Shown piece by piece: positions 3,978-59,281 of a stretch of 64,000 nucleotides of DNA; position 1 is the stretch's first letter, and every line of letters begins with the position of its first letter. Source of the stretch: Naegleria gruberi (Eukaryota); assembly GCA_000004985.1 (NCBI GenBank), contig GG738851.1. The stretch is one strand, 5' to 3'. A program made the position numbers and the translations under genes. The notes beneath the pieces are model-generated. The model saw only the letters and a list, made by a program, of their open reading frames with translations, was not told the DNA's origin and searched no databases.

Positions 3978-6900
3978 ATGACGTCCAGAGTGTTTCCTCA
4001 ATCACAAAACACAGCTAGAGTCGCAGGAAGTGTAGTACTAAACGATGCAGAAACTTCCTCTCAATTTGGAGCAGGAACTTCTACCACTTCAAGCTCATTT
4101 GCTTCATCATTGGGTGGGAAAAGTGTTGTAAACAATGCAGGAATAAGTATTTTCTCACTGATAACAACTCTAAGACCTAAAGATACACTAGTTGGTGACG
4201 AGAATACTTACATGTTCCTAGGAATGATATTCTATCATATCTACTTGATATACAACTCTGTAATACTCTCATCACTTTCAACACCAATGATTAGAGATGA
4301 CGATACTAGAACATTGTGGGGAGTTATACCTGGTTGGATATGGAGAGCTTTGTATTTTCCAATCAATTGGGCATCTGAATTCTATCCTTACTTTCTAATT
4401 ATTTCACTATCAATAGCGTTTCTAATTTTACAATTTTCAACTTGTTTTGGAATTTATTATTGTAAATGGGCTTCAAGAAAGGGAGGAAAATTATTTGGAA
4501 GGATCAAGACATTTCTGCTGAATTCATTGTTATTCCAAAGAACTTTTACTTTATTCATCTTGTCTATTCATGCAATTTTGTTATCTCCAAATCTGGATTC
4601 CCAAAATGGAACTTTATATTATTTTCCAAGTCAATCTTTCAGCTCAGTGATACAAATAGTTTGTACCGTAATAGGATGTGTTGGAATATTGTTGAATATT
4701 GGTTTGACGGCTATTGCAACACTTTTAACTGCTGAAACGAGCCCTAAATTGAGCAAAAGAATTTGGTTTTCATTGTATTCAATTTCGCCTTTCATGTTCT
4801 TTAATTTTGTGAATCAAATTAGTTTAGTTTCAACTATTATTTGTACAGGACCTTATACCTATGTTGCTTCTATTGTGAAGATTGTAATGAACGTATTCCT
4901 GCTTATAGTAACGATGAAATCCTTACCATTCTTTAGAAAATGGGAGAATTGCTTTTATTTGGCATTGGTTAGTTTGAAAGTTTTTACTCCAATCCCAACT
5001 TTAATTTTGCAATTTCTTTCCTCGAATCAATTGAATCAACAAGAGATTGGTGGAATAATGACTGGTGTTACTTTTGCAACGGCAGTCATTTCTTTTGGAT
5101 CTGGCTTTATTATTTCTTACGTTTGGTTAGTAATTGAAATGAAATCAGTCAGAAATATGATTTCTAATAAGGAAGACAGTTCCGCAGCATTGCTTCTTCT
5201 TGAGAAATCAAAAAAGAAACAAGATAGTCTTTCACTATTCCTAAGATTTGCAAGCAATAGTGCTCCAGAAATGAAAGTGAGGGAAGGAAGCGATTTTGAC
5301 TTGGCCAAACATGCTGTAAACACACTAGTCAAACCAATTGAAAATGTTGAACTGTTAATTGTCAGTTCCTTATTTGTATCATTTGGTGGTATTCCAGATT
5401 ATGATAGTTCTCAATCATTTAGTATTGGATTGGCTCTATTACAAAAATCTCAACGAATTTCACCATCACTAGCTCAGGTATTCAATATCATGTTAAGAAA
5501 TGAAGAAATAGAATATCATGCCTTTCATGGAAATAATCTTGAAGTTTTAAGAAAACTTGTAATGGTTGAAAAGAAAGTGAAATCATTGTCTAGATGCCAC
5601 AAGTCATTCTTTAAAGAATTATTGAATGATAAACCATCTATTGGTAAATTAGAACAGATTAATAGTGCCAGTTGTTCAATTTATAACGAATGCGACACAA
5701 TTTATGATAATTTACTGGCTTCTAATAGATCCAACAAGACTCTGTTGAGATCGTATGCTTCCTATTTGGAAAAATACAAGTGGGAAATCCAGTTAGCAAA
5801 ACAATTATTTGAGGAAGCTCAAGACAATGATGAAGATAAGAATAAGCAACCGTTTAAGGCATACGAATCCTCATTCCATAAAGGGAACACCTCTAGGTTT
5901 AGTATAGATTCACAAAGAGCTAATATGGATGGTTGGGATTCAGTAAGTGTTGCTGGTGTAGAAGAGAATGACGAAGAAAGAAAAGATCATGTTTTGAGAA
6001 TGGCAATCAACTCTCCTATGTCAACAATTGTATATTCCACATTGTTTTTCCTATTCTGTGCTCTCTCAGTACTAACTATTTGTATCGTTGCTCCCGTTTC
6101 ACTTGTATTTTCTCAGAGTATCAATGAGAGAATGACCATGCAAGAGAAGGTATGCCTAATGACCTCAGTTCCATACAAATTATTAGCTCAGATTCAAGCA
6201 CTTCAAACAGAATATAATTTGAGAGGAAATAATACTGAAAAGCTACTTAATTCTACCATTGATTATACTAATAACTTGTTGGATACTGTTAAAACAGTGG
6301 TATCGGCTGGAGACAATAATATGCTAATGCCAGAAGTTGCCAGAGAATATTTGAAAAATCAATACGAACTTCAACTTCCAATTACAAATGATTCATTAAT
6401 TGGAAAGGAAATTCCTGCATATACAGCCACCAACGCCTCTATTCAATTCTATTTATCTGCTATGTACACTCATGGAAAGACCTTGTTAAATGAATTTAAT
6501 GCTATGGACGGACTGGTTTCGAATACCGATGAGAATTATGCTTTCTTATTTATTTTCTACAATAGAATTCCAATGACTTTAGCTTTCAATAGCTTGTGCT
6601 CTAAATTTGTTGAAGAAAGTGTATCTTCAATTGAAACAAATTTTGAACGCTTGTGGATAATCACAGTTTCCACTCTGGTAACTTATTTGAGTATTTCACT
6701 AATTTTCTTTACAATATTATTCACACACTCGAGAAGACTTGTTGTTGAGCTCAAAGAAATATTTAGAAGAATAACCAAAGATGAAATAGGGAAAGTTTAT
6801 CACAATTTCGAAAAGAAAATAGATGATTCTATTAGCTCTTCAAATAACCTTTTGAAAATGAGCAATATCCTAATGATTGGAAGTTTCCTCTTTGTAATCA

Positions 6901-8804
6901 TCATCTGCCTATGTTCCTTACTAGTCATTGTAGAGCTCAACAGCAACACCAAACAAAGTGCTCAATCCATGAATATTGTCGGTTCAATCAATGCAGTTTC
7001 ATTAAGAACTGCAAGAACCAACTTTAGATTACTCTGGTATATTGATAGGATAAAGTATTTAACCTTGGAACCTTCATTTGTTAACCAAGAAAATAAGCAA
7101 GATTTACTAGATTTGAGAACTTATTGGAATTATGTTGTGGTAGGCGATGAATCAACTTCTTACACATCTGCCATTTATGGAAAATATGATGATGTTGATT
7201 ATATATTATCTGATCTTTGTAATGATACTATTTCAATGGCTGATCCTTGTCACAGTTTAACTGCTGCCTTGACTGATTACATTACAAAAGCTCTTGATTA
7301 CAATGAAGTGTTCTATTACCAAAAAAAGAGTCAGACATTTATGGTAAATGAATATTTTGGGAAGATATTCTATGTTACGCAGACAATTACTTCCAATTTA
7401 CAAACTTTAATCTCTGCTCTTGTCACTCATGAAAAGGTTTCAAGTGTTGGGATAACAGCTTCTATGATTAGCTTATGTTTTATTTCCGCAATTTTATATG
7501 CTGTCATATGTTATTCATCCTTGAATAGGTATTGGAAAGAAAGAGCTTGTTTGAGAATGATGTTGAATTATATCAATTTAGATCTCATTGAAAGCAATTT
7601 GATATTGAGAGAATATGTCATGTCAAATGTTGTTCCTTCCTCAAAGATTTCCTCTAAAATAGTGCCATCTTTTGAAAGTGAGAAAGAAAAGGATGAAAAG
7701 ATTGAAATGGTCAAGACCATATTGAATGGAGGCGTAGATTCTGCAATTATTTGTGATAAGGATGGAAATATTACAATTTTCAATAATTCTGCTGAGGAAA
7801 TGTTTGGCTATTCCAGATCACAAGTTTTAGGTTTACCAATTCAAACTCTATTCACTTCTGAATATTCTGAGAGAATCATGAAATTGGTTTCTACTGGTGA
7901 ATCGCATGATTCATTCGAAGCAATGTCTCAGAGACGAAACAAGACTCATTTCTCTTCAAAGGTTTCAGTTTCCATTTCCATTCATGAAAAGAAACAAATT
8001 TTGATTGTCTTTATTCGTGATATTACTCCAGAAAAGAAACAGAGTTTATTAATTGCTGAGGAAAAGAAGAAGAGTGAAGATTTACTTTTGAATATTTTGC
8101 CAATGTCCATGGCTTCAAAATTGAAGAATGGTGAGGAGCATTTATATGAAAAAGTGAATGATATTACTGTTTTCTTTAGTGATATGGTTGGATTTACTGC
8201 ATGGAGTTCAAAACTGCAACCTAGTGAACTAGTTCATATCCTAAACTCGATTGTTACTGGATTTGATAAGCTGACTGAAATTCACTTGATTGATAAGATT
8301 AAAACTATTGGAGATGCCTATTTTTGTGTAAGTGGATTACACTCATGTAAATCTTCCGATCACCCAGAAAGAATGTTAAAGTTTGCCATTGAAATTATGT
8401 CCTTTTTAAAGAATATCAACACATCAAATCAAACATTAATTAATGTGAGAATTGGCATGCACACAGGCGATGCTGTTGGAGGAGTCATTGGATTTAAAAA
8501 GTTTGCCTACGATCTGTGGGGTGATACCATCAATACTGCCTCTCGTATGGAATCAACATCACTTCCAGGTAGAATTCAAATTTCCAGATCTACCTATGGA
8601 AGAGTTTATGACCTATTCGAATTTGAAGAGAGATTAATTGAAGTGAAAGGAAAAGGAGAATGTCAGACTTATCTACTGAAAGAGAAACATCATGAGAATC
8701 CAATAGCTCTTAATAACATGGCACAAGTGGAAGATAATGATCATTTAGAAGTTTCACAAGGACCATTTTCAAGCCATAAAGAAGATGAGCAACAGCAACA
8801 GTAA
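3978..8804 (+). CDS. Membrane-bound class III nucleotidyl cyclase, predicted adenylyl cyclase, 1608 aa. It has an N-terminal polytopic TM block, a cytoplasmic coiled-coil region, 4 further TM helices bracketing two N-glycosylation-rich extracytoplasmic loops, a PAS domain and a single C-terminal cyclase domain.
   Basis: - The ATG is in A-rich context (aaaaacataATG).
- There are multiple hydrophobic helices at aa ~75–380 and at ~690, ~890, ~960 and ~1155.
- PAS-like segment: VKTILNGGVDSAIICDKDGNITIFNNSAEEMFGYSRSQVLGLPIQTLF.
- Cyclase motifs: FFSDMVGFT…, KIKTIGDAYF (Lys at the substrate-specifying position), FAYDLWGDTINTASRMEST (Asp). The Lys/Asp pair points to ATP rather than GTP. Confidence 0.85.
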   Translation: MTSRVFPQSQNTARVAGSVVLNDAETSSQFGAGTSTTSSSFASSLGGKSVVNNAGISIFSLITTLRPKDTLVGDENTYMFLGMIFYHIYLIYNSVILSSLSTPMIRDDDTRTLWGVIPGWIWRALYFPINWASEFYPYFLIISLSIAFLILQFSTCFGIYYCKWASRKGGKLFGRIKTFLLNSLLFQRTFTLFILSIHAILLSPNLDSQNGTLYYFPSQSFSSVIQIVCTVIGCVGILLNIGLTAIATLLTAETSPKLSKRIWFSLYSISPFMFFNFVNQISLVSTIICTGPYTYVASIVKIVMNVFLLIVTMKSLPFFRKWENCFYLALVSLKVFTPIPTLILQFLSSNQLNQQEIGGIMTGVTFATAVISFGSGFIISYVWLVIEMKSVRNMISNKEDSSAALLLLEKSKKKQDSLSLFLRFASNSAPEMKVREGSDFDLAKHAVNTLVKPIENVELLIVSSLFVSFGGIPDYDSSQSFSIGLALLQKSQRISPSLAQVFNIMLRNEEIEYHAFHGNNLEVLRKLVMVEKKVKSLSRCHKSFFKELLNDKPSIGKLEQINSASCSIYNECDTIYDNLLASNRSNKTLLRSYASYLEKYKWEIQLAKQLFEEAQDNDEDKNKQPFKAYESSFHKGNTSRFSIDSQRANMDGWDSVSVAGVEENDEERKDHVLRMAINSPMSTIVYSTLFFLFCALSVLTICIVAPVSLVFSQSINERMTMQEKVCLMTSVPYKLLAQIQALQTEYNLRGNNTEKLLNSTIDYTNNLLDTVKTVVSAGDNNMLMPEVAREYLKNQYELQLPITNDSLIGKEIPAYTATNASIQFYLSAMYTHGKTLLNEFNAMDGLVSNTDENYAFLFIFYNRIPMTLAFNSLCSKFVEESVSSIETNFERLWIITVSTLVTYLSISLIFFTILFTHSRRLVVELKEIFRRITKDEIGKVYHNFEKKIDDSISSSNNLLKMSNILMIGSFLFVIIICLCSLLVIVELNSNTKQSAQSMNIVGSINAVSLRTARTNFRLLWYIDRIKYLTLEPSFVNQENKQDLLDLRTYWNYVVVGDESTSYTSAIYGKYDDVDYILSDLCNDTISMADPCHSLTAALTDYITKALDYNEVFYYQKKSQTFMVNEYFGKIFYVTQTITSNLQTLISALVTHEKVSSVGITASMISLCFISAILYAVICYSSLNRYWKERACLRMMLNYINLDLIESNLILREYVMSNVVPSSKISSKIVPSFESEKEKDEKIEMVKTILNGGVDSAIICDKDGNITIFNNSAEEMFGYSRSQVLGLPIQTLFTSEYSERIMKLVSTGESHDSFEAMSQRRNKTHFSSKVSVSISIHEKKQILIVFIRDITPEKKQSLLIAEEKKKSEDLLLNILPMSMASKLKNGEEHLYEKVNDITVFFSDMVGFTAWSSKLQPSELVHILNSIVTGFDKLTEIHLIDKIKTIGDAYFCVSGLHSCKSSDHPERMLKFAIEIMSFLKNINTSNQTLINVRIGMHTGDAVGGVIGFKKFAYDLWGDTINTASRMESTSLPGRIQISRSTYGRVYDLFEFEERLIEVKGKGECQTYLLKEKHHENPIALNNMAQVEDNDHLEVSQGPFSSHKEDEQQQQ

Positions 8805-8989: not shown

Positions 8990-11989
8990 ATGTCCCAAGC
9001 AAATTCATTGAGCAATGAAGGTGGTGGTATCAGCAAAGATGTTAATCCACCTGTTGAAGATTTTCCGTCTGCCGAGGTGGAAGAGGAAGAATTTTACAAT
9101 TCATCATTTGATGATAGAAAACAAGTGAGTGGGAGAATTGAAGAACAACAACAACATGATGACGATAATCCAATTTTGATGACTATTCCATCATCAAATT
9201 ATGGATATTCCATCAATGATAATTCCGTTTCGCAACTACACCAACAACAACAAGGAGAAGAACAACAATTTAATTCTTCTTCGGCTACCATCCATGCCAA
9301 TAGTTGGAAAGAGAAAATTCAAGCTATGAGAGGAGGTGGTTGGAGAGAGTATTTCAATATTGTTTCGATTTGTTCCTTTCTGACTGTAACATTGTGTTTC
9401 GCTGCTGTTTCGTTTATTTTCTTGATTTATCCATTTGTGTATGTGAGAGATTTTTCACACACTTTGGTAGAAAGTTCACAAATCAAATTGCAACCATACT
9501 ATCCACTCGGTTATAAACCAAAAGGATATGTACCAAAGTTTTCTCAAGCAACCACCAAATTGACAGTTCCAGGAAATGCAAGATTCATAATGTTATCTTT
9601 TGTAGCAAATGCATCAGTGGAAGCTGTCGTTTTCAGAAATACTCTCACTTACTATAATCAATTCATTGATGCAACAGCTTTGAGTGCCTACTATACGAAT
9701 CAGACACAATTCATATTCGATAATCCTTTGGAAAGAAGCTTTTTTGTAATTTCAGAAAATTACTATGCAACCAGATTCTTTGCAACAAAGATTATGAATC
9801 ATACGAGTTTGGAGTTTGATAATTCTCCATTGAATAATGAAAACAAAACTGTGCTGTACATTGTTTGGAGAAATGAAAATTTAACTCCTCTCGAAAATAC
9901 CATTGTAATCGATTATTGGTACAGACTTGAATATGATGATTATAGGGAGACTACAAGTTTCACATTTGCCATGATTTCATTTGGTGCTTTTGTTCTTGCA
10001 GCTAGTTGTGTCTTGTTAAATACTCCAACAGTTTCTGGAATTTTCTCAATAGTTTACAATTTCTTGAGAAATTTACTATCATTCAAAAAACCTCTACCTG
10101 AAAATGGAGAGTGGAGTATTGATAATACTTTAGCACGAGGAGCTGACATTATTTTCCAAGATTTGTCATTTGTCTCATTCACAGATAAGGTAATTTTATA
10201 TCCAACAACTGGAATTTTGAAAGCTGGCAAGTTAACAGCAGTTATGGGTCAATCTGGTTCTTCAAAATCAACTTTTTGTAATGTTCTTTGTGGAAGAGCT
10301 TCCCATGGTATTCAGAAAGGAAAAGTCCTAATCAATGGAAATTCATTCTCTGGAAATACTAACAATTTAGTTGGATTTGTTACACAAGATGACATTATGT
10401 CTCCTCATTTAACTGTCAAGGAAACTTTGGAGTTTTCATGTAAGATTAGAAAGAATAAGAAGAATTCTGAAAAGGTCGAAGGTGTAATGCAAAAGTTAGG
10501 AATTACAAAAGTTCAAAATTCACAAACTTCAGTAATCAGTGGAGGTGAAAAAAGAAGAACATCAATTGGTATTGAAATGGTTGCAGACACACCAATTTAT
10601 ATTCTAGATGAACCTAGTTCTGGACTCGATTCAGAATCTGCTCTCTCCCTTTGTAAAACCCTTAGAGAAATAGCAGAAGAAAACAACTCGAATATTATTT
10701 GTGTTATCCATCAACCTTCATATGAAATATTGGAACAATTTCATGATATAATGCTGTTCAGGGAAGGTAGATTACTATTCCACAGTCCTGTACCAACTGT
10801 AATCCAATCACTCAAAGAGCATATCCCTTCTCATATTATTCGTAGCAATCCTGCTGATGAGATTTTGAGAACTCTTTCAACAGATTCTGTTGAAATTGTT
10901 AATTCCATTATCAAAAATACTGATCCAGCCATTCATTCCATTTCGAGAAAGCTCGAATTAGATTGGAAAGATATGAAAACTTCACCATTTTACATTCATT
11001 TCTATGCATGTTTTGTGAGAGCTGTCAAACAATTCTACAGAGATTGGAGAAATTTGATATTTGAAATTCTCATTTCCTTTGTTGTTGGTTTGCTTATTGG
11101 AGTATTATTTAATGGTCTTGAATTTATTGGAAGTGTTTCAAGTTCAAAATATAGCAAATGTCCAATAGAAATCAGAGCTGGTTGCATGCTTCCTCAATCG
11201 GATACGATTGCTCCATACTCATCTTTCCTCGTTTTGGCCATTGCATTGATATCTATAATGAGAGGTTTGAGAGTTTTTGGATTTGAAATTGAGAATTTCA
11301 AAAGAGAATCTCATGTAGGTCTCAATTCTTGGATGTACTTTTTATCGAAGGATTTGATTTCAATTTTTGTGATTGCTGTCATTTCTTTCAGTACTACATT
11401 TGGCATGTTATCTGCATTACCACATACTAACTTTTTCATTCTCTATGCCATTGTATTTCTAACAATTATGGCTGGTTTTCCAATTGGTTATACATTGTCA
11501 TTCTTCTTTGATCCACAAATAGCTCAATTGGCAGCTGCCTTAGTAGTTGTAGTATTTTACAGTTTTGGAGGAAATAATCCAACCATTCCTGAAATTGAAA
11601 AGCTTTCTCCAGTTCTTGCCTACAGTCACGTTATCACCTATTTTAGATATATTAGAGGTTTAATTTATATGGAAGAACTTATTACAAGAAGAGAAGATAA
11701 CGACATTGCATCAGCTCTTAAGGTGAATGGATATGAAATTGAAGCAATTTCATTCTACTTTTATGCTCTCTTCTTTTGGATTGTAGTTTTCAGGTATATG
11801 GCAGTATATTGTATGTGGGCTTGGAAACCTCGTTCTCTGTTCAGTAAGATTAATTTCCTATCAAGGAGATTGACTGGACGATTCTCTACCTGGTTTTCAA
11901 ATAAGATTGTTCAACCATTGAGAATGAAAATGAAAAGAAATAAGTATAAGGAAGTTGATAACTCTGAAGTAAATCCTTTCAAGCAATAA
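8990..11989 (+). CDS. ABCG (White-type) half transporter, 999 aa. The order is NBD then 6-TM TMD, preceded by a ~330-aa N-terminal extension that contains a Q/E-rich low-complexity head, one TM, a ~180-aa N-glycosylation-rich loop and a second TM.
   Basis: - Walker A: GQSGSSKST.
- ABC signature SGGEKRR, Walker B ILDEPSSGLD and an IHQPS motif typical of ABCG.
- Six C-terminal TM helices.
- N-extension helices are SICSFLTVTLCFAAVSFIFLIYPF and FAMISFGAFVLAASCVLL, flanking a loop with NAS/NQT/NHT/NKT/NLT sequons. Confidence 0.85.
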   Translation: MSQANSLSNEGGGISKDVNPPVEDFPSAEVEEEEFYNSSFDDRKQVSGRIEEQQQHDDDNPILMTIPSSNYGYSINDNSVSQLHQQQQGEEQQFNSSSATIHANSWKEKIQAMRGGGWREYFNIVSICSFLTVTLCFAAVSFIFLIYPFVYVRDFSHTLVESSQIKLQPYYPLGYKPKGYVPKFSQATTKLTVPGNARFIMLSFVANASVEAVVFRNTLTYYNQFIDATALSAYYTNQTQFIFDNPLERSFFVISENYYATRFFATKIMNHTSLEFDNSPLNNENKTVLYIVWRNENLTPLENTIVIDYWYRLEYDDYRETTSFTFAMISFGAFVLAASCVLLNTPTVSGIFSIVYNFLRNLLSFKKPLPENGEWSIDNTLARGADIIFQDLSFVSFTDKVILYPTTGILKAGKLTAVMGQSGSSKSTFCNVLCGRASHGIQKGKVLINGNSFSGNTNNLVGFVTQDDIMSPHLTVKETLEFSCKIRKNKKNSEKVEGVMQKLGITKVQNSQTSVISGGEKRRTSIGIEMVADTPIYILDEPSSGLDSESALSLCKTLREIAEENNSNIICVIHQPSYEILEQFHDIMLFREGRLLFHSPVPTVIQSLKEHIPSHIIRSNPADEILRTLSTDSVEIVNSIIKNTDPAIHSISRKLELDWKDMKTSPFYIHFYACFVRAVKQFYRDWRNLIFEILISFVVGLLIGVLFNGLEFIGSVSSSKYSKCPIEIRAGCMLPQSDTIAPYSSFLVLAIALISIMRGLRVFGFEIENFKRESHVGLNSWMYFLSKDLISIFVIAVISFSTTFGMLSALPHTNFFILYAIVFLTIMAGFPIGYTLSFFFDPQIAQLAAALVVVVFYSFGGNNPTIPEIEKLSPVLAYSHVITYFRYIRGLIYMEELITRREDNDIASALKVNGYEIEAISFYFYALFFWIVVFRYMAVYCMWAWKPRSLFSKINFLSRRLTGRFSTWFSNKIVQPLRMKMKRNKYKEVDNSEVNPFKQ

Positions 11990-12040: not shown

Positions 12041-14485
12041 TCATTTATTGTTGAAAAATTTAAAGAAATTCCAAGATTTGTTGTCTTTACAGTTTTTGTT
12101 AATGTATGTAATTAAATGTTGTTTACCCTTTTCCGTTGCATACTTTTGAACGAATTCTATGGATGCCCCTTTTTTAATGAGATTTTGAGCCCACTCGGCA
12201 CTGCCATTAATATCAGCCACAGTCACCAATGCACTGCTCAACACATTACTTGATAAATTGCAATTATTGAATATCCACTCAAAAATAATAGTATTTCTAT
12301 TCTCAATCGCAATCTCTAAAGGATAACCACAATCAATGCCTTGTTCTTCGTGAAAATGTGGATAGTTATTCGAATACCATTGAATTGCTGGAAGATATTC
12401 AAGGACACAAGCTCTATGAAGAGGACCATCAATATAGTACATGTCTTTTGTTAAGGATATTTTCTGGCCATCTATGTTAATAGTTTCTAATTTTGGAGTT
12501 GACTTCAAGGCATCAATTATTTTTCCATTTTCCTCAATAATAGCAATAAAATACAAGTATTTTAAATTATTTGATAATACTGAATTAGTATTTTTCACAT
12601 TAATATCTTCAAAATATTCCAATAAATTTGAATAATCAACATTGTCCAGTACGTCCAATAACTCTAAAACAGAAAATGATTTTACAGAAAATTCTTTAGC
12701 AATTCTGGTTAAATGTTCTGGTTCTTCTGATTTTTGTTGGTTGTAAGTAGTTGTGGCAATTTCAAACATTTGGTTATCATCCAATAGAGATGCAAAAGTC
12801 ACTTGTCTGATATAATTCTGTTGATATTGTTTTCTACACCAATTGATTCCAATTAGTGTTGTAGTAGAAGGAGCATTTTCAATCTTCAACTGATTCCTTA
12901 TTGAATCCAAGTCTATTGAAGGTCCATCACTAAAGGCAATAAATATAGTCTTTAAATGAGAGGGGAAATAGTTATTTGCTACCTGCAAACATGAATCTAG
13001 TAATGCTGGTTTCGAACAATCAATCAATAATATCATTGCTTTTGCATTTCTCATGTATGTTTCAAAAATAATTTTAAATCTTTCTTGTTCTGCTAAAAAC
13101 CAGCATATAAACTTATGATCAAAGCAACTAACTAACCTAAAATCAACACCAATCAGTGAGTGAGAATTCCTATAAATATTTAACGATTTTGTAATGTTTG
13201 TATGTGCCGGTGATCCATAGAATGTTGCCAAACATAAATGGTACACAGGTAATTCAATTGGCTTTTCGATAATGGTCTGATTTGCTTGTTGAATTAATTG
13301 TTCAATAGAGGGACGATCATTTGGTTGCAAGCTCATCATTTTCAATATTAGCTCAATGAGATGATCAGAATATTTCATACGTTGATATTTTACAAAATAA
13401 TCCTTCAATAACTTTGGATGTTTACACATTGAATTACATAGAGTTGATAAATCACGTGTCATTAAGTAATATAACGTGACACCTAATGCAAAAATGTCAG
13501 ATTGAGTAGAATATGGTTGTTTGATATCCAATATTTCATAATCAATAATTTCAGGTGCTAAATATTTAAATGTCCCACTCAATTGTGAAATTTCTGTTGA
13601 ACTATTGGTGTTAGTTTTTGCAAATCCAAAATCACTCAAACAAACTTGAATATTATCTTGTTTGGTATTAATGGATTTGATTAAAATGTTTGCAGGTTTA
13701 ATATCTTTGTGTATGATATTAAATTTTTGAATATGTTTTAATGCATTTCCCATTTGTTCTATAATTAGTAATATCATTTTTTCAGATGGAATGTTATTTG
13801 GATTTTTAATGAAATAATCGAATAAGTTTCCAAATTCTAAACAATCCATTTCAATACATAAAAAAGATTGATTGTTGCTAATGAAAGCAGTATGCACACG
13901 AATAATATTCTCATGTGATACCTTAACTGTTTGTATAGCCTCATGTAATGCTTGATTCATGTCAAATTCCAAAGATGGATATATTACTTTGACAGCTGCA
14001 ATACTTTGATTTTTTCTTTTCACTTGATAAACAATTCCGAATGCTCCACTTCCTAACTCGTTTATAATTGTTGAGTATCTATTTAATAATTCTTCTTTTA
14101 CATTTTTGCTATTATTATTCAAACTATTAATATTATTATTCAAACTATTAATATTATTATTCAAAGTATTATTATTATTAATATTAATATTATTTGAAGT
14201 ATTAGTAGTAGTTGTTGTATTTTCAAATTTCTTTATATTCTTGATCAAATTACAAATAGAATGAGCATGAATTGGTTTAATACCTAATTGAATAAGAGCC
14301 TGTTCATCGGAATAGAGAAGTGTAAAGCCTGTACATTCTTGTTCAATTAGTACTTATTGAAGTTATTAACTTGGATGAATAATTGTGAAAAACATACTGT
14401 CAACTACACTCTTGGGGCAACCATTCCGAAGTAGCCAATTACCCACCCGTTCTGTTGACCAAGAGGTAAAGTCATTGTCGTCCAT
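12041..14485 (-). CDS. Multidomain protein kinase, ~799 aa: SAM domain, poly-Asn linker, Ser/Thr kinase domain with HKD instead of HRD, a degenerate Rab/Ras-like GTPase domain, and C-terminal ankyrin-like repeats. Two exons: 14485..14398 and 14352..12041, with a 45-nt intron.
   Basis: - The ORF-track start at 14248 is a TTG, and the frame stays open upstream to a TAA with no ATG.
- Upstream there is ATGGACGACAATGAC… (14485) reading MDDNDFTSWSTERVGNWLLRNGCPKSVVD.
- A GTATGT donor (14397) and aataAG acceptor (14353) join it in frame.
- The product continues ILIEQECTGFTLLYSDEQALIQLGIKPIHAHSICNLIKN, which is SAM-like.
- Kinase motifs: GSGAFGIVY, AAVKVI, HKDIKPANILI, DFGFAK, GTFKYLAPE.
- The GTPase-like block (YGSPAHTN…GVDFRL…WFLAEQERF…LLIDCS) lacks the P-loop GK[ST] and DTAGQ.
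- A GPLHRAC motif is ankyrin-like.
- Total 2400 nt, divisible by 3. Confidence 0.8.
14111..14200. repeat. Imperfect ~30-nt tandem repeat (tattcaaactattaatattattat)n that encodes the poly-Asn/NNNINSL tract of the kinase.
   Basis: Direct reading shows caaactattaatattattattcaaactattaatattattattcaaagtattattattattaatattaatatt. On the coding (minus) strand this translates to NNNINSLNNNINSLNNN. Confidence 0.6.
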
Positions 14486-14644: not shown

Positions 14645-15788
14645 TTACAAATCAACTCCAGAATAGAATAAAAACTTGTTCAACAATCTCATGTACCAAT
14701 GATCTATCAGAATGTGTTTCTCATTATTAGATGAGAATAATTGCTCACAAATTACTGAAGAAACTTTTTGAGGAGATTGAGCATTGTCCATCATCTTTTT
14801 AGCCACTTGATAGAGTTCCATATAAGGTTTGTAAAATTGTGAGCTTTCACTGAATGGTTTCATATTCAAAATTTGGGTTTTTGCAAATCCTGGCTCAATA
14901 CCTATTTCAATAATTTATAAATCATTGTAAAATTGAATGAAAACTTACAAGTAACTCTCAATCCTTGAATAGATTTGAATTCTCTTCTCAAACCGTCTGA
15001 AAATCCATAAAGTGCAAACTTGGTGGTACTGTAAAATCCAGTAAATTTAACAGCACTGTAACTTGCAGCAGATGCAACATTAATTACAATTCCTTGATTA
15101 GATTTTGAATCGTTCTCTTGGTTGTTTGAAATCATCATTGGGTAAATACATCTCAACATTCTAATAGGTCCTAAAATATTCACTCCAAATACATCCAACA
15201 TTTCAGTTTCGGATAATTCAGCTAATCCTGCTGTGTTTTTTGTTTTTGGTGATGAAGTAATTCCTTAATTAGACCAAATACTTGAGTGATATTCCATTCC
15301 AACAATTGATTTTGAATTAATTTTGCAGTGTTTTCAACCTGTTCATTATTCGTTATATCACATGCAAATAATTTCAACTTTTCACAATTATCCGAAAGTT
15401 CTTGCTCGAAAACTTGTTGCATTTGTGAGAGAGAATAATCAATTACAATAACCTTTGCATTCCATCTCGAACCCAATAATTCTTTAGCAACCAAAGATCC
15501 TTAATTAATTAAATATTTAATTAATATCATTATCATAAATACTTGAAATATATTTAAAAACCTACCAATCCCACCCGAGCCCCCAGTAATTACAATTACT
15601 CTATCCCGAGATGAAATATCACATTTTGGTGAATTCCTTCTCAACATCCAATACAACACTGAGGTTGCAATTGTTGTTCTCCACGGATTTTCCCTCATGA
15701 CATTCCAAATATCTGCTAAATAATGATAAACACCACTATTTAAAAGCCCAGAAATTATTTGTCCACCACCAATATTAAATTTCTCCAT
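14645..15788 (-). CDS. Short-chain dehydrogenase/reductase (SDR), ~328 aa, 4 exons on the minus strand: 15788..15566, 15499..15275, ~15230..14949 and 14901..14645. The start could instead be the upstream ATG at 15839.
   Basis: - Four adjacent minus-strand ORF fragments carry SDR motifs: RVIVITGGSGGIG (Rossmann), …AGLAELSETEMLDVFGVNILGP, INVASAASY…YSTTK (catalytic YxxxK), and a C-terminal GFAKTQ.
- They are joined by 40–66-nt introns with GTAGGT, GTCTAA and GTAAGT donors and AG acceptors.
- The exon sum is 987 nt, divisible by 3.
- The exon 2/3 junction is the least certain. Confidence 0.65.
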
Positions 15789-16212
15789 TCGATTTTTCTT
15801 AAATTTTTTTATAATTTTTAATTTCTTTTTAATTTCCAAAAGATAATAATATTTAGGCGCGGTGATGAAAAACCGTAGTGATGAAGAATTATTATCATTG
15901 TAAATACAATTATCTACGTATTTCCTACAGTAATATCCATTTTTTACCTTTCAATACTTTTTCATTACTCTGCTAACTTTGAACTTGAAAAGGGAGTTGA
16001 AATTTCCAAGCAAATGATCCATAATTTCCAGAATCAGAGAATGCACTAGGGTGTGACCTAAATTGTGAATTCCATAGGTGAGATTCAATTACCTTTGGGC
16101 ATTTTTCATGATTTTTTCACACTTGCAAAATTTGTTTGAAGGTGGTGGTTTCGAATAAAACGCAGGACTTCTTTGAATTCATTGAATAACAAATAAAACT
16201 GAATTCTATTCA

Positions 16213-23963: not shown

Positions 23964-25913
23964 TTACTTTTCCTTGAATTCAGCATCGTTTGGTGATTGA
24001 GTGTTTGGTTGTTGTTGAGTTTGTCTAGAATTGGCTTGTTCCTTGTAGTGTTGTTCAGCCAACTTAGCTTGAGTTTGCTTCAAAGCATCCAAAGAAGTCT
24101 TGAGTTGATCCAAGTTATCAGCTTGCATAGCTTCACGAACAGCTCTAACTTCATTTTCAGCCTTAGTCTTCAAATCAGCAGCGAGCTTTGAACCCAAATC
24201 CTTGATGTGTTGTTCAGCCAAGTGAACAGTAGTATCAGCTTCATTCTTAGCATCAATCAAACTCTTTCTCTTAGCATCTTCTTCAGCGAACTTTTCAGCT
24301 TCATCTTGCATTCTCTTGATGTCAGCATCAGTCAAACCACCAGATGATTGAATAGTAATTTGTTGTTCCTTTCCTGAAGCCTTATCAACAGCACTGACGT
24401 TCAAAATACCGTTAGCATCAATATCGAAAGTAACTTCAATTTGTGGAACACCTCTTGGAGCTGGTGGAACACCAACCAAATCGAATTGACCTAACAATTT
24501 GTTATAAGCAGCAATTTCTCTTTCACCTTGGAAGATCTTAATACCAACTTGAGTTTGGTTATCAGCAGCAGTGGAGAAGATTTGAGACTTCTTGGTTGGA
24601 ATAGTAGTATTACGATTAATCATTCTACTGAAAACACCACCCAAAGTTTCAATACCCAAAGACAATGGAGTAACATCGAGCAAGACAATACCATCAACAT
24701 CACCTCTCAAAACACCACCTTGAATAGCAGCACCAAGAGCAACAACTTCATCAGGGTTAACATTCTTTGATGGCTTTCTTCCGAAGAATTCAGAAACCAA
24801 AGTTTGAACACGAGGCATACGAGTCATACCACCGACAAGAACGACTTCATTGATATCCTTCAAAGTAATACCAGCATCCTTCAAACACTTCTTACATGGT
24901 TCAATAGTACGATTAATCAAATCAGCACACATTTGTTCGAATTTAGATCTAGTCAAATCCATGAGCAAGTTCTTTGGTCCGGAAGCATCAGCACAGATGA
25001 AAGGCAAGTTAATTTCAGATGATTGAGCAGATGACAATTCAATCTTAGCCTTTTCAGCAGCTTCTCTGACACGTTGGAGAGACATTGGATCCTTTGACAA
25101 ATCAACACCTTCCTTTGCCTTGAAATCAGCAATAATCCATTCAACAATCTTGTGATCGAAATCTTCACCACCCAAGAAAGTATCACCATTGGTAGCCTTA
25201 ACTTCAAAGACACCATCTTGAATTTCAAGAATAGAAACGTCGAAAGTACCACCACCCAAATCGTAGACAGCAATGATACCGTGCTTTGATGAATCCAAAC
25301 CATAAGCAAGAGCAGCAGCAGTTGGTTCGTTGATAATTCTTTCAACAGTAAGTCCGGAAATTTGACCAGCATCCTTGGTAGCTTGTCTTTGAGAATCGTT
25401 AAAGTAAGCTGGAACAGTAATGATGGCTTGAGTAATCTTTTCACCTAAATATTGTTCAGCAGTTTCCTTCATCTTTTGCAAAATAAAAGCACCAACTTGG
25501 GATGGTGACAAATCCTTTCCACCAGCTCTAACCCAAGCATCTCCATTTGGTCCACGAATAATATCGTATGGGACAATTTCCATATCACGTTTAGTCATTG
25601 GATCATCGAAACGACGACCAATCAATCTCTTAATAGCAGTGAGTGTATTCTTTGGGTTTGTAACAGCTTGTCTCTTAGCCAAAGCACCTACAAGCAAGTT
25701 ACCATCTTTATCGAAAGCAACAACTGATGGAGTGGTTCTAGCACCAATATCGTTTTCAATAACACGAGCAGACTTGTTAGATTCCATAACAGCAACACAA
25801 CTGTTAGTAGTACCCAAGTCAATACCAATGATCTTGTTTCTTTGTTGTTGTTGAGTAAGACCCATCATTTGGGATTTCTTGATGTTTCGCAGTAATTTGT
25901 TTCCTCTGAACAT
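23964..25913 (-). CDS. Mitochondrial-type Hsp70 (DnaK/mortalin family), 649 aa, with an N-terminal presequence.
   Basis: - [27 protein letters not shown] precedes [14 protein letters not shown].
- DnaK-type signatures: [25 protein letters not shown].
- The C-terminus lacks cytosolic EEVD.
- The ATG at 25913–25911 was verified. Confidence 0.9.
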
Positions 25914-26633: not shown

Positions 26634-29495
26634 ATGTTAGGACAAACAATAACGTTGGATGAAATCGAAAGAGTAGATCGTGAATCGATAGGATTTACTA
26701 ATTTAATTGAAGATAGATATATTTCCTACTCTGATTGTAATAATGAATACTTAAATAGTGACCATATTATGAATCACCAACTTTATACAATTTCAAATAC
26801 TCTTGGTCTTATTGCTTTTATTAATAGTGAAGATTGCATTAAAATATCATCAACTTTTGATATTCACGAATACATACAAAAGAGACTTGAGAGTTTACCA
26901 AAAACTATTTATGAATACAAATTAGACTCTACACCTAATTTTATAAAATTTTCAGAGAATGGAATGAACTTAGTATTTTCCGTAAAAGATGAAATTATTA
27001 TCTTTAATTTTACAAAGGATTTAAAATTTAAACAATTGAGACATAAATTCGATTCGGAAATTGTGGAATTTGATTGCAAGCTTGACAATAAGATATTTGT
27101 TTTATTAAGTACAAATAATATCCATTACTTAAACTATGAACAGGATATAGTAGTTAAAAAGTTAGAATGTGTAACTGATTGTTCAACAATTTGTTCAAAC
27201 AACAAAATATTGAACAGCTATTTACTTGTTGGTACAAACACAAGTGATCTAATTCTTGTGAACTTTGATAAGGATTTAGTTTTATTTAAGTGTAAAATTG
27301 ACGATATTCAGAGAGTTCATTGTTTAAATTGGTTTGACAACTTTTATTGTACATTTTCTACTTTTGTACCTTATAATGATGCAGTGGATTTTAAAATTGT
27401 AATTTTACAATTGAATCATGAATGCTTTAAAGGTCAACCATCTAGTGATGTGGAATTAGTAGTAAACGGCGGATCTTGCATGGAATTTTTCCCAGATTAT
27501 CAAAAACCAGTAACAATTGATAATACATGCAGATATCATACAGTTTATTTGGATCATTGGAAGATGCTGTTGTGCTCCACCAGTACTGATAGTAGACTTG
27601 TTGTCTTCCAACAAATCGATGACAAGTTTAACTTATTAGCACTTAATAACAAGTGGTCTATTGATACTTTCCCACTTTATGAGGATAATCCAACTTTCTC
27701 TTTGGGACTAGTTGCCGATTTTGGTTATGACTACCAAATAGACAATATCAAAAGTAAGACTGATGCAGCAAAGCATGAAGCCTCACCTCTCATTCATATA
27801 TATCTGTCCAGTGGGTTTATTGTTACTTATGCATTAACTAATTGTGATGAATTGAAGAAATATCCAGTAGTACACGCATCACAAAGCTTAACTAATTTAA
27901 AGATTGAGGAACTAGCCGAAGAGAAAAAAGAACCAATTGTAGAAAAAGTGGAAATAACTCCAACTATTGAAGAAAAGCCAAAAGATTCACCTGTTCCTGA
28001 ACAAAAAAATATTACAGAGGTTATATCTCCTGTAAAGGAGGAAAAACCTGTAGAAACAATCATTCCAGAGGTGAAGAAGTCTCCAGAAGTTACAAAGCAA
28101 CCATCATTCGAACAACCAAAGATACAATTTAATCCAGTTACCAATAATACTAGTAATTTAGGAGGATTTAGTTTTGGAAATACCAATACATCCAATACTT
28201 TCAATTTTAATGCTGTAACCAAACCAACTCAACCAAACATTACATTTCCAACAGTTGCAGCTCAACCAAAGCCAATTATTCCTCCAACCACACAACCAAC
28301 ATTACCTGAACCTAATATCCAAAAACAACCTTTGGCTCAACCTAGGAGTAATGTTATGGAAAAGATAACACCGAATGTTACAACAGGAATTGTTGACAAG
28401 AATATGATCCAATCACTTAATAATTTTTCTTCCAATTTAACATCAGTTAATGCTGAAAGTGGTGTTTTCAAAAATGATATCAAGCCAATCATTGGTAAAC
28501 CACTAAAACATGAGCCAATTAACCAAATACCACTCATTCCTAAAACCAAACCTTCCCAGAATCCTTCAAAGCCATCATCTTCCATTTCGAGTTTTAAAAA
28601 TGATTTAGCTGTTATTCAGTCAAAGTCTTCAAAGTCTAAGTCCGACGAAAAAATTCAACAATTATCCAAGGATACAGCCAAGAAAGTTCAAGATGCCAGA
28701 GTTAAATTTAGCTTGTTGAAGAATGTTATAGAGAACATCAATAATAACCAGGAAAATGATTTGAAATTTATCAAACAAGATATTTCAACAATTAGATCAA
28801 ATATTGATAAATTGAATGATGAATTAATTAAGAGTGACGAGTCATTAAAACAAAGAGTAGAGAGACTGAACGAATACCTAAATAGAGAATGCTCAATTGT
28901 AGAGTTATTAGGTATGAAAATCCAACAAAATAGAAAAGAGTCAGTGAAAGAAACAGGATTGGATGAGACTGCTCAATATTTCAAAGATATTATTTCTCAC
29001 AAGTTTAATAACATAATAACTAATATTGAAGGGTTGGAAAATCAAGTTAAGCGTAAATTAAACTTGATTCCACAGAAAACTCCAACATTGATTTGCTTAC
29101 AAAATACTTTAAGTTTGCAAAGAAACAGAGCTGTTGAATACAGAAAGTATGTCTTGAGTATTTCTCAAGCATTGCACTCTAAGGAACATACCTCAGCTAC
29201 AGATTTATTTATTCAAAATTTAGCAATGAAAAAGGCTAACCATGAATCAAACCAAAATGGTAGTGCATTGAAAAATATTGAAATGACCAGGATCAAACCA
29301 ATAGTTAATAATTCTTCAATTTTGAAGAAGAAAATAAGTCTTATTCATGAAGATGATACAACTATTTTCCAAGATTATGAAAATATTGATGAAATTTCGG
29401 ATATTTCTTATGAGGATGATGAATCCAAGAACCCACTCAATCAATCTTTTATTCAATCTGAAAATTCATCACTTGATCTCTTAGATGAAGAAGAT

Positions 29496-29530
<35 letters not shown>

Positions 29531-57200: not shown

Positions 57201-59281
57201 TAATTCCTGGCTTCCAAAATCTTGAAAAGCATGTTGAAGACAATTTTGAAGAATGGAAAGTCTTCTTTGAAGATGGAAATCATATTCCAACATGTTATCC
57301 TAAATCTGAAAATGAAATTCAAAACTCGTTTAGAGAAATGATGTTATTCAAGATATTCAAACCTGATCATTTAGTTAACCAAATGGAGAGATTTATTGGA
57401 TCTGTTTTTGGAAATGATTTCTTACATGGAAGGGAAACAAGTATCGATACTATTGTTGATAAGGAAGTTGATTGTTTTACTCCTTTAATATTGGCATCAG
57501 TACCTGGTCATGATGCATCAGTGTACATTGATGATTTGGTTAAAACAAATCAAAAGACTTGCTCTTCTGTTGCCATGGGTTCATCTGAATCATATGACCA
57601 GGCCGACAAAGCCATCAATATTGCTATCAAATCAGGATCATGGGTATTATTGAAGAATGTACATCTTTCACCTAAATATCTCTACAAACTTGAAAAAAAG
57701 CTACATTCTTTGAAATGCGATAATAGTATTAACAAGTCATTCAGATTGTTCTTGAGCAATGAGATTCATCCAAATATCAATCTTAATCTTCTCAGAATGT
57801 CATATACACTTGTATTTGAACCAGCCACTGGTATTAAGAGCTGTCTTACACAAACATTCTGCAACCTTTCCAAGGTACGTGTTGAAAAGCCACCAGTTGA
57901 AAGAACCAGACTCTATTTATTGGTGTCATGGCTTCATGCAGTTCTTCAGGAACGTTTACGTTATCCTCCTATTGGTTGGAGTAAGAAGTATGAATTTAAT
58001 CACACAGATTTGAAATCAGCATACGACACCATAGACAAGTGGGTTGATTTGTACTCTGAAGGTCAAACAAACACCAAACCAGAGGCATTACCATGGAAAG
58101 CCCTTCATTCTTTACTTGGAGAATCAATTTATGGTGGAAAGATAGACAATGAATTTGATATGGTTATTTTGAAGTCACTATTGGATGAATTAATGACTCC
58201 TGAAAGCTATAATCTTACATTTACATTACCAGGTATTGATTCAACATTCACAGGAAACAAGTTTGAGAACTTCCAATCATGGATCGAATCACTTCCAAAT
58301 CAACAACCACAATGGCTCGGCTTGCCAACAAATATTAATGAGTTAGTTAATATTAACAAGGCAAACTTGACAATCAGCCAAACTAACAAAATTAAGGATT
58401 TATCACATGATAATACAATTGAAGATCTTAAATCCATGCTGGCTAACACAACCCATGAAAAGATTAGTAATATTGAAGGAATGGAATCTACTATCAACGA
58501 ATGGACAGACATGCTTCCAACTAATTTCGAGTTCGAAATGAAGGAATCAAGTCAACTTGTTCAAGAAAACATTCCTGTATTCAAATTCTTCCAAAGAGAA
58601 TTGAAGACCATTGCATCAGTGCTTGCATTAGTTAAAACAGATTTATTGAATTTGACCAATATCAACAATGGAGAAGCCAAATATACCAACTACTATAGAC
58701 ACCTGATAGATAAATTGTCAAAAGGAAATGTTCCAAAGTCTTGGGGCCATAGCTATCCTTTCCTTGAAAATATTACTGTAAATATGTGGATTTTGGACCT
58801 TGTTAAGAGATTAGACCACCTTTTAGAAGTCAAGACCAATATTGAAAAGTTTGGACGCTTTTCCAATAACAATGAATCGATTTGGTTTGGAGGATTACTG
58901 TCACCTGAGGCATTCTTAACTGCAACCCGTGAAGAAACATCTAACATGCAAAAGATTCCACTTGAGAAGCTACAACTTTGCTTTGTTGATAGAAATCACC
59001 AAAACTCATTCACATTAGAAGGTTTATCAATTCAAAGTGCCAAGTTTATTGATGGTAGAGTATGCATTGGAAAAGAATTGAATTCAATCATTACTCCAAT
59101 TTCTCTTGCATGGGTTAGCTCTGAAATGTTAACTGAAGACATTTCTTCTATCAAAATACCTGTATATCAAAACTCTGCAAGAAAAAAGATCATTTGCTCT
59201 CTTTCTGTCAAGTATGATGAAGAAAATATCTCCAAGAATATAATCTATCAACGTGGTGTAGCTATTTTGGCAAAGGAATAA
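45238..59281 (+). CDS. DYNC1H1: Cytoplasmic dynein 1 heavy chain, ~4650 aa. Three exons: 45238..45499, 45542..46064 and 46114..59281. The ORF-track entry 46118..59281 is only the 3' exon.
   Basis: - AAA1 P-loop context: [40 protein letters not shown]…GSWGCFDEFNRL, diagnostic of cytoplasmic dynein 1.
- AAA3: GPPGSGKS. AAA4: GESGSGKTT.
- The C-terminus …YQRGVAILAKE matches …YERGVAVLCTE.
- Exon 3 begins …QEINYWHSLERTLS, homologous to human QEINFWLNLERAL at ~residue 235.
- The two upstream ORFs (88 and 167 aa) supply the missing ~255 N-terminal residues.
- They are joined by a GTTAGT donor with a 42-nt intron, then a GTAAGT donor with a 49-nt intron, both in phase.
- The exon sum is 13953 nt, divisible by 3. 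Confidence 0.9.

What the first reader, a model, noticed from the sequence alone, without database searches (positions are those of the whole stretch)
12041..14485. SAM–kinase–pseudoGTPase–ankyrin fusion with a non-RD (HKD) catalytic loop and a hidden 5' exon
The apparent first codon is TTG, so the true start is an upstream 88-nt exon encoding a SAM domain. C-terminal to the kinase is a Rab/Ras-like fold whose P-loop and DxxG are degenerate (YGSPAHTN, WFLAEQERF). This argues for a non-nucleotide-binding pseudoGTPase rigidly coupled to a kinase, an inverted Roco-like logic. The kinase has HKD rather than HRD.
Basis: partly seen in the sequence, partly recalled or inferred. Interest (0 to 1): 0.6.

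Follow-up and report, generated by a model that had tools for sequence, protein, structure and literature searches.

The report
Kinase fused to a dead Rab
A Naegleria gruberi gene encodes an intact protein kinase joined to a Rab-like domain that has lost every GTP-binding motif, followed by ankyrin repeats; this rare cassette otherwise turned up only behind lipid-kinase-like domains in giant slime-mould and bacterial proteins.

Summary
The window is Naegleria gruberi NEG-M. On the minus strand, an 88-nt ATG exon (14485-14398), a 45-nt GT..AG intron and a 2312-nt exon (14352-12041) give a 799-aa protein.

Domains, in order:
- SAM, residues 8-70. It scores above the Pfam cut-off only with this exact splice.
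- An Asn-rich spacer.
- A complete Ser/Thr kinase, 122-385, with HKD in place of HRD.
- A Rab-derived G-domain fold, 399-552.
- A long helix and helical linker.
- Degenerate ankyrin repeats.

New here: the pseudoRab-linker-ankyrin cassette is a rare conserved family. About seven representatives were found among 1.84 billion proteins. The others are ~2000-2900-aa proteins of Dictyostelium and of bacteria, where the cassette follows PI4K-type-II-like kinase-fold domains (two in most, at least one in the MAG protein).

It is not a Roco protein: no COR domain, no LRR, no working P-loop. The mechanism (a nucleotide-free Rab mimic that targets or scaffolds the kinase) is inferred. There is no RNA evidence for the splice.

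The parts
14398..14485 (-). Exon 1 (88 nt): ATG plus 29 1/3 codons encoding the first helix region of the SAM domain.
   Evidence: First ATG after an in-frame stop. It adds about 20 bits to the SAM match, covering profile positions 3-24.
14353..14397 (-). Intron, 45 nt, GTATGT...AATAAG, phase 1.
   Evidence: Restores the frame. It is the only acceptor that gives a full-length SAM above the Pfam cut-off. Neighbouring-gene introns are 47-66 nt. No RNA evidence.
12041..14352 (-). Exon 2 (2312 nt), including the TGA stop at 12041-12043.
   Evidence: Continuous open frame.
14231..14464 (-). SAM domain, residues 8-70; spans the intron.
   Evidence: Pfam SAM_2 6.6e-9 and SAM_1 1.2e-6, both above their cut-offs.
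14105..14224 (-). Asn/Thr-rich low-complexity spacer, residues 73-112.
   Evidence: Read directly from the translation.
13286..14077 (-). Eukaryotic protein kinase domain, residues 122-385, Ser/Thr type.
   Evidence: Pkinase 3.5e-45. Best PDB relatives are CaMK1G 1.3e-22, NEK1, SLK and NEK2. Catalytic residues located.
13688..13711 (-). Catalytic loop HKDIKPAN, residues 244-251; Lys replaces the Arg of HRD.
   Evidence: The closest homologues aligned read HRD; the N. gruberi relative P0005 reads HRN.
12785..13246 (-). Rab-derived pseudoGTPase domain, residues 399-552.
13184..13222 (-). Degenerate G1 region FYGSPAHTNITKS, residues 407-419. Only four residues (FYGS) connect beta1 to alpha1, where a GxxxxGK[ST] P-loop should be.
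   Evidence: DSSP of the model; alignment to canonical Rabs.
13076..13102 (-). Degenerate G3/switch II WFLAEQERF, residues 447-455. DxxG has become FLAE. The Trp and the Glu that replaces the Gly are invariant in the family.
12596..12775 (-). Long alpha-helix (residues 556-586) and helical linker carrying the family motif V.ELL..L..[VI]DYS.L.
   Evidence: AF2 model with pLDDT mostly 90 or above; conserved columns in the alignment.
12086..12583 (-). Degenerate ankyrin-repeat region, residues about 620-785, with a beta-hairpin insertion at about 653-662.

Best explanation
What it is (high confidence): a two-exon Naegleria gruberi gene for a 799-aa cytosolic signalling kinase. The domain order is SAM, Asn-rich spacer, catalytically complete Ser/Thr kinase (HKD catalytic loop), about 13-residue linker, Rab-derived pseudoGTPase, long helix and helical linker, then 4-5 degenerate ankyrin repeats.

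How it probably works (inferred):
- The Rab-like domain cannot bind GTP or GDP. Its P-loop is shortened to four residues, and the DxxG Asp and Gly, NKxD and SAK are all replaced.
- It therefore cannot act as a switch. It appears frozen in one conformation and packed against the helix and ankyrin repeats as a single unit.
- It keeps the Rab-family (RabF) residues that in true Rabs line the switch/interswitch effector surface: IGVDF, the Trp, ERF, Y.R.A and L..D. The family has also gained invariant motifs of its own: W.L.E.E and PW.KK.YQQ.YIR.
- I therefore read the cassette as a constitutive Rab-mimicking docking or scaffolding module. It would bring the kinase to a partner or membrane compartment.
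- The SAM domain would add oligomerisation or adaptor docking.
- The kinase would supply the catalytic output. It may be less dependent on activation-loop phosphorylation because of the HRD-to-HKD change.

In every relative found, the same cassette sits C-terminal to a kinase-fold domain. That argues it is a kinase-accessory module.
For: Shown:
- Gene model and SAM continuity across the splice.
- Intact kinase motifs.
- Rab homology at sequence and profile level.
- G-domain topology and a 4-residue beta1-alpha1 connection in an AF2 model with pLDDT 79.5 and pTM 0.81.
- Structural neighbours are Rab, Arf and Sar for the G-domain and ankyrin domains for the C-terminus.
- All G-box motifs are replaced in every member, while other columns are invariant.

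Cassette family:
- An exhaustive HMMER scan of 1.84 billion representatives found only 13 hits. About seven of these are cassette homologues.
- They come from Dictyostelium purpureum and D. firmibasis, a Gammaproteobacteria MAG and two metagenomic bacteria.
- For two of them, gene neighbourhoods confirm a bacterial origin.
- These giant proteins are homologous end to end.
- So a kinase fold precedes the cassette in all three lineages.

Other:
- Codon usage and GC3 of every part of the gene match its neighbours, so it is a resident gene.
Against: - No experimental or transcript evidence exists for expression, splicing, kinase activity or absence of nucleotide binding.
- The Rab-mimic and targeting role is inference from motif retention.
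- No orthologue was found in N. fowleri or N. lovaniensis, so the gene is lineage-specific and could be evolving quickly.
- The AF2 alignment had only 7 sequences, and the P-loop region has only moderate confidence (pLDDT 65-71).
- The kinase-to-cassette geometry was not modelled.
- Lys in HKD may work just like Arg.
Confidence: 0.6

Rival explanations
1. The cassette is mainly an intramolecular allosteric regulator of the adjacent kinase, not a targeting module. This would be a nucleotide-independent counterpart of Roc-COR in LRRK2 and other Roco proteins. It would hold the kinase in an on or off state until a partner binds the ankyrin repeats or the SAM domain.
For: - Only about 13 residues separate the kinase C-lobe from beta1 of the G-domain.
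- The cassette always follows a kinase-fold domain.
- In the giant relatives an LRR-like segment precedes the pseudoRab, echoing the LRR-Roc order of Roco proteins.
- Pfam's best sub-threshold hit for the domain is Roc.
Against: - In the giant relatives the kinase-fold domains lie hundreds of residues away, with an LRR-like segment in between, so direct packing is not a conserved feature.
- No interdomain model was obtained; the full-length alignment was too poor to use.
Confidence: 0.25
2. The Rab-like domain still binds a nucleotide or another ligand non-canonically and acts as a switch. This would resemble the pseudoGTPase classes that bind but do not hydrolyse.
For: - A basic residue followed by Ser or Ala ([RK]K[SA]L; TKS in Naegleria, RKA in the bacterial members) is conserved on alpha1 across the family.
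- Sequence motifs alone cannot prove absence of binding.
Against: - That Lys lies at the C-terminal end of alpha1, not at its N-terminus where the P-loop Lys sits. The beta1-alpha1 loop is only 4 residues.
- The Walker-B/DxxG Asp is Phe, and the G3 Gly is an invariant Glu.
- The NKxD and SAK base-recognition motifs are lost in all seven members.
Confidence: 0.08
3. The locus is a decaying or mis-modelled gene. Either the fusion is two genes, or the upstream exon is a coincidence, or it is a non-functional recent chimera.
For: - The exact 799-aa product and three alternative models are absent from a 15-billion-protein collection.
- Only a 133-aa, 95%-identical fragment from another small scaffold is annotated.
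- No orthologue was found in other Naegleria species.
Against: - The frame is uninterrupted for 735 codons in AT-rich DNA, with no stop between the kinase and the cassette.
- All catalytic residues are intact.
- The SAM domain is completed exactly by the splice.
- Cassette motifs conserved across kingdoms are retained.
- Codon usage is native.
Confidence: 0.04

Closest known systems
Roco proteins (LRRK2, Dictyostelium Roco kinases, DAPK1)
   Same: One polypeptide combines a protein kinase with a Ras-superfamily G-domain and repeat modules (ankyrin or LRR). Roc is itself Rab-like, and Pfam Roc is the best sub-threshold Pfam hit.
Internal class I pseudoGTPase domains (p190RhoGAP pG1/pG2; AAGAB N-terminal domain)
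   Same: A G-domain fold embedded in a larger signalling protein, lacking nucleotide-binding motifs and used for protein-protein interaction or structural roles (abstracts PMC5593906 and PMC12490416, listed).
   Different: No sequence relationship was detected. Those are not Rab-derived, not followed by ankyrin repeats and not fused to a kinase. Nucleotide-free status is experimentally shown for them and only predicted here.
Rab GTPases (Rab12, Rab30, Rab3, Rab1 and others)
   Same: Significant sequence and profile similarity and fold similarity. The RabF-type motifs IGVDF, KxxxW, ERF, Y.R.A and L..D are retained (own knowledge of the RabF motifs of Pereira-Leal and Seabra).
   Different: G1, G3, G4 and G5 are all destroyed. 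The position is internal, so there is no C-terminal prenylation motif. Identity to Rabs is only about 20%.
Giant PI4KII-like / LRR / pseudoRab / ankyrin proteins of Dictyostelium (XP_003283212, XP_003283211, KAK5584595) and bacteria (MCH9644249 and metagenomic relatives)
   Same: True homologues of the whole cassette: pseudoGTPase, linker and ankyrin, at 23-31% identity with shared invariant motifs. A kinase-fold domain lies N-terminal to the cassette.
   Different: They are 1900-2900 aa. They carry PI4K-type-II-like atypical kinase-fold domains, two in most and at least one detected in the MAG protein, plus LRR-like repeats, instead of SAM and a canonical protein kinase. All are annotated only as hypothetical, ankyrin or TPR proteins.
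SAM-domain protein kinases (e.g. yeast Ste11, human ZAK/MAP3K20, Dictyostelium Samk kinases; own knowledge)
   Same: A SAM domain on the same chain as a Ser/Thr kinase, generally used for oligomerisation or adaptor binding.
   Different: No specific similarity of the kinase domain to STE or TKL groups. The nearest PDB relatives are CaMK1G, NEK1/2 and SLK, all at about 1e-20. None of those kinases carries a pseudoGTPase-ankyrin cassette.

Membership tests
Eukaryotic protein kinase (active Ser/Thr kinase) | Pkinase profile above the curated cut-off | tested here: met
   PF00069 154.9 bits against a cut-off of 31.7, residues 126-385.
Eukaryotic protein kinase (active Ser/Thr kinase) | Catalytic residues: GxGxxG, beta3 Lys, alphaC Glu, catalytic Asp and Asn (DxKxxN), DFG, APE | tested here: met
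   GSGAFG 130-135, K151, E167, HKDIKPAN 244-251, DFG 270-272, APE 295-297.
RD kinases | Arg immediately before the catalytic Asp (HRD) | tested here: not met
   The sequence reads HKD. Lys keeps the positive charge, so the consequence is uncertain.
SAM domain | SAM_1 or SAM_2 profile above cut-off over the full length | tested here: met
   SAM_2 36.2 bits (cut-off 20.5) and SAM_1 29.3 bits (cut-off 23), profile positions 3-66 of 66, only with the 45-nt intron.
Ras superfamily / Rab family (fold and descent) | G-domain fold with significant similarity to Rabs | tested here: met
   [not shown]
Functional small GTPase | G1 P-loop GxxxxGK[ST] | tested here: not met
   The beta1-alpha1 connection is 4 residues (FYGS), with no Gly-rich loop and no Lys in register.
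Functional small GTPase | G3 DxxG, G4 NKxD, G5 SAK | tested here: not met
   DxxG is FLAE, NKxD is SDGP and SAK is WCRK. The same losses occur in all seven family members.
Rab family | C-terminal Cys prenylation motif | tested here: not met
   The domain is internal, and the protein ends ...FFKFFNNK.
PseudoGTPase, class I (no nucleotide binding) | Experimentally shown lack of nucleotide binding | not testable with these tools
   Predicted only, from motif loss. Needs MANT-GTP or thermal-shift assays.
Roco family | COR domain directly after the G-domain | tested here: not met
   [not shown]
Roco family | Roc G-domain competent for GTP binding | tested here: not met
   See the G1-G5 rows above. 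Pfam Roc scores 19.5 bits, below its cut-off of 27.
Ankyrin repeat proteins | Ank profile above cut-off, or ankyrin-repeat fold | tested here: inconclusive
   [not shown]
pseudoRab-linker-ankyrin cassette family (unnamed) | Shared motifs W.L.E.E, PW.KK.YQQ.YIR, ELL..L..DYS.L, NLK.LYY and R.C.SGFLPA.QW across the whole cassette | tested here: met
   phmmer 6e-25, 1.4e-24 and 4e-14 to bacterial members and 1.6e-9 to Dictyostelium. Alignment with 14 invariant columns.

The most novel reading that the evidence does not exclude
The pseudoRab-helix-ankyrin cassette is an undescribed, evolutionarily mobile kinase-accessory module. In this reading it is a nucleotide-free Rab mimic that places kinases on specific membranes or Rab-effector complexes. 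The kinases are protein kinases in Naegleria and PI4KII-like, probably lipid, kinases in dictyostelids and bacteria. It would have been exchanged between amoebae and bacteria that live with or in them, so the bacterial giant proteins would be host-mimicking effectors.
Probability: 0.3. Interest if true: 0.7.

Novelty: new variant of a known kind. Interest (0 to 1): 0.5.

Why it matters
- Kinases hard-wired to G-domains (LRRK2 and other Roco proteins, DAPK1) are medically important, and their mechanism is still debated. A natural version whose G-domain has lost nucleotide binding altogether, yet is conserved across three distant lineages, shows what a G-domain contributes to a kinase apart from switching.
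- It adds a Rab-derived member to the short list of internal pseudoGTPase domains.
- The cassette's distribution (Naegleria, Dictyostelium, bacteria) is a possible case of amoeba-bacterium gene exchange.
- The giant relatives reveal an unannotated PI4K-type-II-like kinase-fold domain.
- Practically, the exact 799-aa product and three alternative models are absent from the public protein collection, so the locus may need re-annotation.

Tried and rejected
**Searches that gave little or nothing**
- Word-indexed homologue searches with the full protein and with the C-terminal half returned only generic kinases or nothing. They even missed a 95%-identical N. gruberi fragment, so their negative results were disregarded.
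- The third such search, using the cassette alignment including the ankyrin repeats, was swamped by unrelated ankyrin proteins and wasted.
- Exact look-ups of four alternative gene models, and contig look-ups for neighbouring genes and for the 133-aa fragment, found nothing. The public annotation of this locus, and the second copy's exon structure, could therefore not be examined.
- Scans for more cassette members found only the already known MAG in GTDB genomes. They found nothing in JGI metagenome contigs or IMG/VR.
- The AFDB50 fold library was unavailable.

**Analyses that did not resolve the question**
- A full-length alignment for modelling kinase-cassette packing was misaligned by MAFFT and was not submitted.
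- A neighbour-joining tree of the pseudoGTPase domain was unresolved (support 33-57%), so no direction of transfer is claimed.
- Composition and codon analysis showed no sign of recent transfer.

**Readings rejected**
- Roco membership: no COR domain.
- The 60-nt and 69-nt intron alternatives. The 69-nt one has a yeast-like TACTAAT branch site, but both truncate the SAM domain and lower its score.
- Assignment of the kinase to the TKL or STE groups: no preferential similarity.
Full report
**Source and gene model.** The window is from Naegleria gruberi NEG-M. The ORF at 23964-25913 (-) is identical to XP_002681196.1, and three other ORFs are identical to N. gruberi proteins on the same 693,645-bp scaffold.

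On the minus strand, the ORF tool lists a 735-aa frame, 12041-14248, whose first possible start is TTG. Upstream, the ATG at 14485 is the first ATG after an in-frame stop. An 88-nt exon runs to 14398. A 45-nt intron (GTATGT...AATAAG, 14397-14353) rejoins the frame, giving a 2400-nt CDS of 799 codons plus a TGA stop.

Two other in-frame acceptors exist, giving introns of 60 and 69 nt. I compared them by how well each completes the SAM domain.

| Model | SAM_2 score (cut-off 20.5 bits) | SAM profile covered (of 66) |
|---|---|---|
| 45-nt intron | 36.2 bits | 3-66 |
| 60-nt or 69-nt intron | 19.4 or 18.8 bits | 3-66 or 3-64 |
| Exon 2 alone | 16.2 bits | 25-66 |

Exon 1 therefore supplies the missing first third of a SAM domain. 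The adjacent short-chain-dehydrogenase-like gene has introns of about 66, 51 and 47 nt with GTA.GT...AG ends, so 45 nt is ordinary here. No transcript data were available.

**Domains.** Pfam gives SAM (residues 8-70) and Pkinase (126-385, 3.5e-45). It also gives only sub-threshold hits to Roc, Arf and Ras (about 430-490) and to Ank (about 705-728).

The kinase has every catalytic element:
- GSGAFG at 130-135
- K151
- E167
- HKDIKPAN at 244-251
- DFG at 270-272
- APE at 295-297

It is of the Ser/Thr (DxKxxN) type. Lys keeps the charge, so I treat the functional consequence as open.

The nearest solved kinases are CaMK1G (1.3e-22), NEK1, SLK and NEK2, all within two orders of magnitude of each other. 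ABL and BRAF are lower. There is therefore no clear TKL or STE affiliation.

**The Rab-like domain.**
- Residues 390-587 alone hit 159 PDB sequences, led by Rab12 (2e-5).
- A profile of the domain from seven family members hits Rab30 at 6.4e-10, and the best 60 hits are all Rabs.
- An AlphaFold2 model of residues 386-799 was built on a 7-sequence alignment (pLDDT 79.5, pTM 0.81).
- It shows beta1-alpha1-beta2-beta3-alpha2-beta4-alpha3-beta5-alpha4-beta6-alpha5. A 31-residue helix, a helical linker and ankyrin-type helix pairs follow.
- Foldseek against the PDB returns Rabs for most of the first 50 hits (Rab43 6.8e-6, TM 0.64 per target).

That condition is not met, so the claim stands.

**Why it is a pseudoGTPase.**
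- In the model, beta1 (residues 399-406) is joined to alpha1 (411-419) by four residues, FYGS. A GTPase has the eight-residue GxxxxGK[ST] loop at this point.
- The only nearby Lys (K418) lies at the far end of alpha1.
- DxxG is FLAE, NKxD is SDGP and SAK is WCRK.
- All seven family members show equivalent losses. The Trp and the Glu that replaces the G3 Gly are invariant, and new motifs (PW.KK.YQQ.YIR) are conserved.
- The Rab-family motifs IGVDF, K...W, ERF, Y.R.A and L..D are retained. I recognise these as RabF motifs from my own knowledge.
- Absence of nucleotide binding is a prediction, not a measurement.

**A conserved cassette.** An exhaustive HMMER scan of 1.84 billion representative proteins with residues 391-799 found only 13 hits. 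They were:
- A 133-aa N. gruberi fragment, XP_002668332, 95% identical to residues 667-799 and located on a 7.6-kb scaffold.
- Two metagenomic proteins, P0129 (part of the 1965-aa P0141) and P0130 (1936 aa), at about 1e-24.
- A 2869-aa protein of a Gammaproteobacteria MAG, MCH9644249, at 4e-14.
- Three 2100-2170-aa Dictyostelium purpureum and D. firmibasis proteins, at 1e-9 to 4e-4.
- The remainder match only part of the query: canonical multi-Rab proteins (P0135-P0137, P0140), and two matches to the ankyrin-repeat region (Penicillium P0132, the mussel Potamilus P0138).

The matches span the pseudoGTPase, the linker and the first ankyrin repeats, and the alignment has 14 invariant columns. The contigs carrying MCH9644249 and P0141 hold RecR, YbaB, riboflavin genes and patatins, or FliF/G/N and ATP synthase. 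They are genuinely bacterial.

The cassette therefore lies C-terminal to a kinase-fold domain in all three lineages. That domain is a canonical protein kinase in Naegleria and a PI4KII-like domain elsewhere.

Further scans gave only the same MAG in GTDB genomes. They gave nothing in JGI metagenome contigs or IMG/VR. The family appears rare.

**Origin.**
- GC, GC3 and codon usage of each part of the gene fall within the range of twelve neighbouring genes.
- A neighbour-joining tree of the domain does not resolve whether Naegleria groups with bacteria or with dictyostelids.
- Transfer between amoebae and bacteria is plausible. Its direction is undetermined.

**Mechanism.**
- Shown: the architecture, the intact catalytic motifs, Rab descent, loss of the G-boxes, family conservation and the recurrent association with kinase folds.
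- Inferred: the G-domain is a nucleotide-free, conformationally fixed Rab mimic.
- Inferred: together with the helix and ankyrin repeats, it forms one interaction unit. The pTM of 0.81 for the three-part model is compatible with this.
- Inferred: this unit docks or scaffolds the kinase, while SAM adds oligomerisation or adaptor binding.

The main rival is intramolecular allosteric control of the kinase in the Roco manner. I could not test it because a usable full-length alignment could not be built. Residual non-canonical nucleotide binding and a non-functional gene are less likely, for the reasons given with each rival.

**Comparison with known systems.**
- It works like a Roco or DAPK-type 'kinase plus G-domain plus repeats' protein. 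It fails the defining Roc-COR test (definition in abstracts listed).
- It resembles the internal pseudoGTPase domains of p190RhoGAP and AAGAB in principle (abstracts listed), but it is unrelated in sequence and is Rab-derived.
- I found no description of this cassette in the paper searches. Those searches were limited and cannot prove that none exists.

**Verdict.** It is a new variant of the kinase-with-G-domain theme. The added finding is that the pseudoRab-ankyrin part is a rare cross-kingdom cassette. Interest is moderate (0.5): Naegleria has many shuffled kinases and nothing here is experimentally grounded, but the cassette and its giant PI4KII-like relatives are new, testable material.

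Noticed in passing
[not shown]
   Followed up: partly
P0131 residues about 2040-2241 and 2247-2635 (L001): The Gammaproteobacteria MAG protein appears to carry two tandem copies of the pseudoRab domain, judging from BLAST matches of one region of P0130 and P0141 to two regions of P0131.
   Followed up: no
not in window: XP_002668332 (P0128), on a 7.6-kb N. gruberi scaffold: A 133-aa annotated fragment is 95% identical to residues 667-799 of the target. This indicates a second allele or a recent duplicate whose upstream part is unannotated.
   Followed up: partly
window 14645-15790 (-): A short-chain dehydrogenase-like gene lies immediately upstream of the target. It has three short introns of about 66, 51 and 47 nt.
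   Followed up: partly
window 8990-11989 (+): A 999-aa ABCG-type half transporter (ABC_tran plus ABC2_membrane) converges on the target gene. Only 51 nt separate the two stop codons.
   Followed up: partly
window 3978-8804 (+): A 1608-aa multi-pass membrane protein ends in a PAS domain and an adenylate/guanylate cyclase catalytic domain (2.3e-53).
   Followed up: no
window 46118-59281 (+): A dynein heavy chain is encoded as a single 4387-codon open frame. The 167-aa ORF at 45565-46068 just upstream may be an earlier exon.
   Followed up: no
window 26634-32144 (+): An 1836-aa ORF has no Pfam family at E up to 1e-5.
   Followed up: no
P0005 (N. gruberi predicted protein, 736 aa): In the local BLAST of the hits, the closest relative of the target's kinase domain is an ankyrin-repeat protein whose kinase domain reads HRN and lacks a DFG (IGFRLS). 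It is probably a pseudokinase.
   Followed up: no
tool behaviour: The word-indexed protein search failed to return a 95%-identical 133-aa protein that is in its collection. Negative results from that tool are therefore unreliable for this AT-rich, low-complexity-rich organism.
   Followed up: yes
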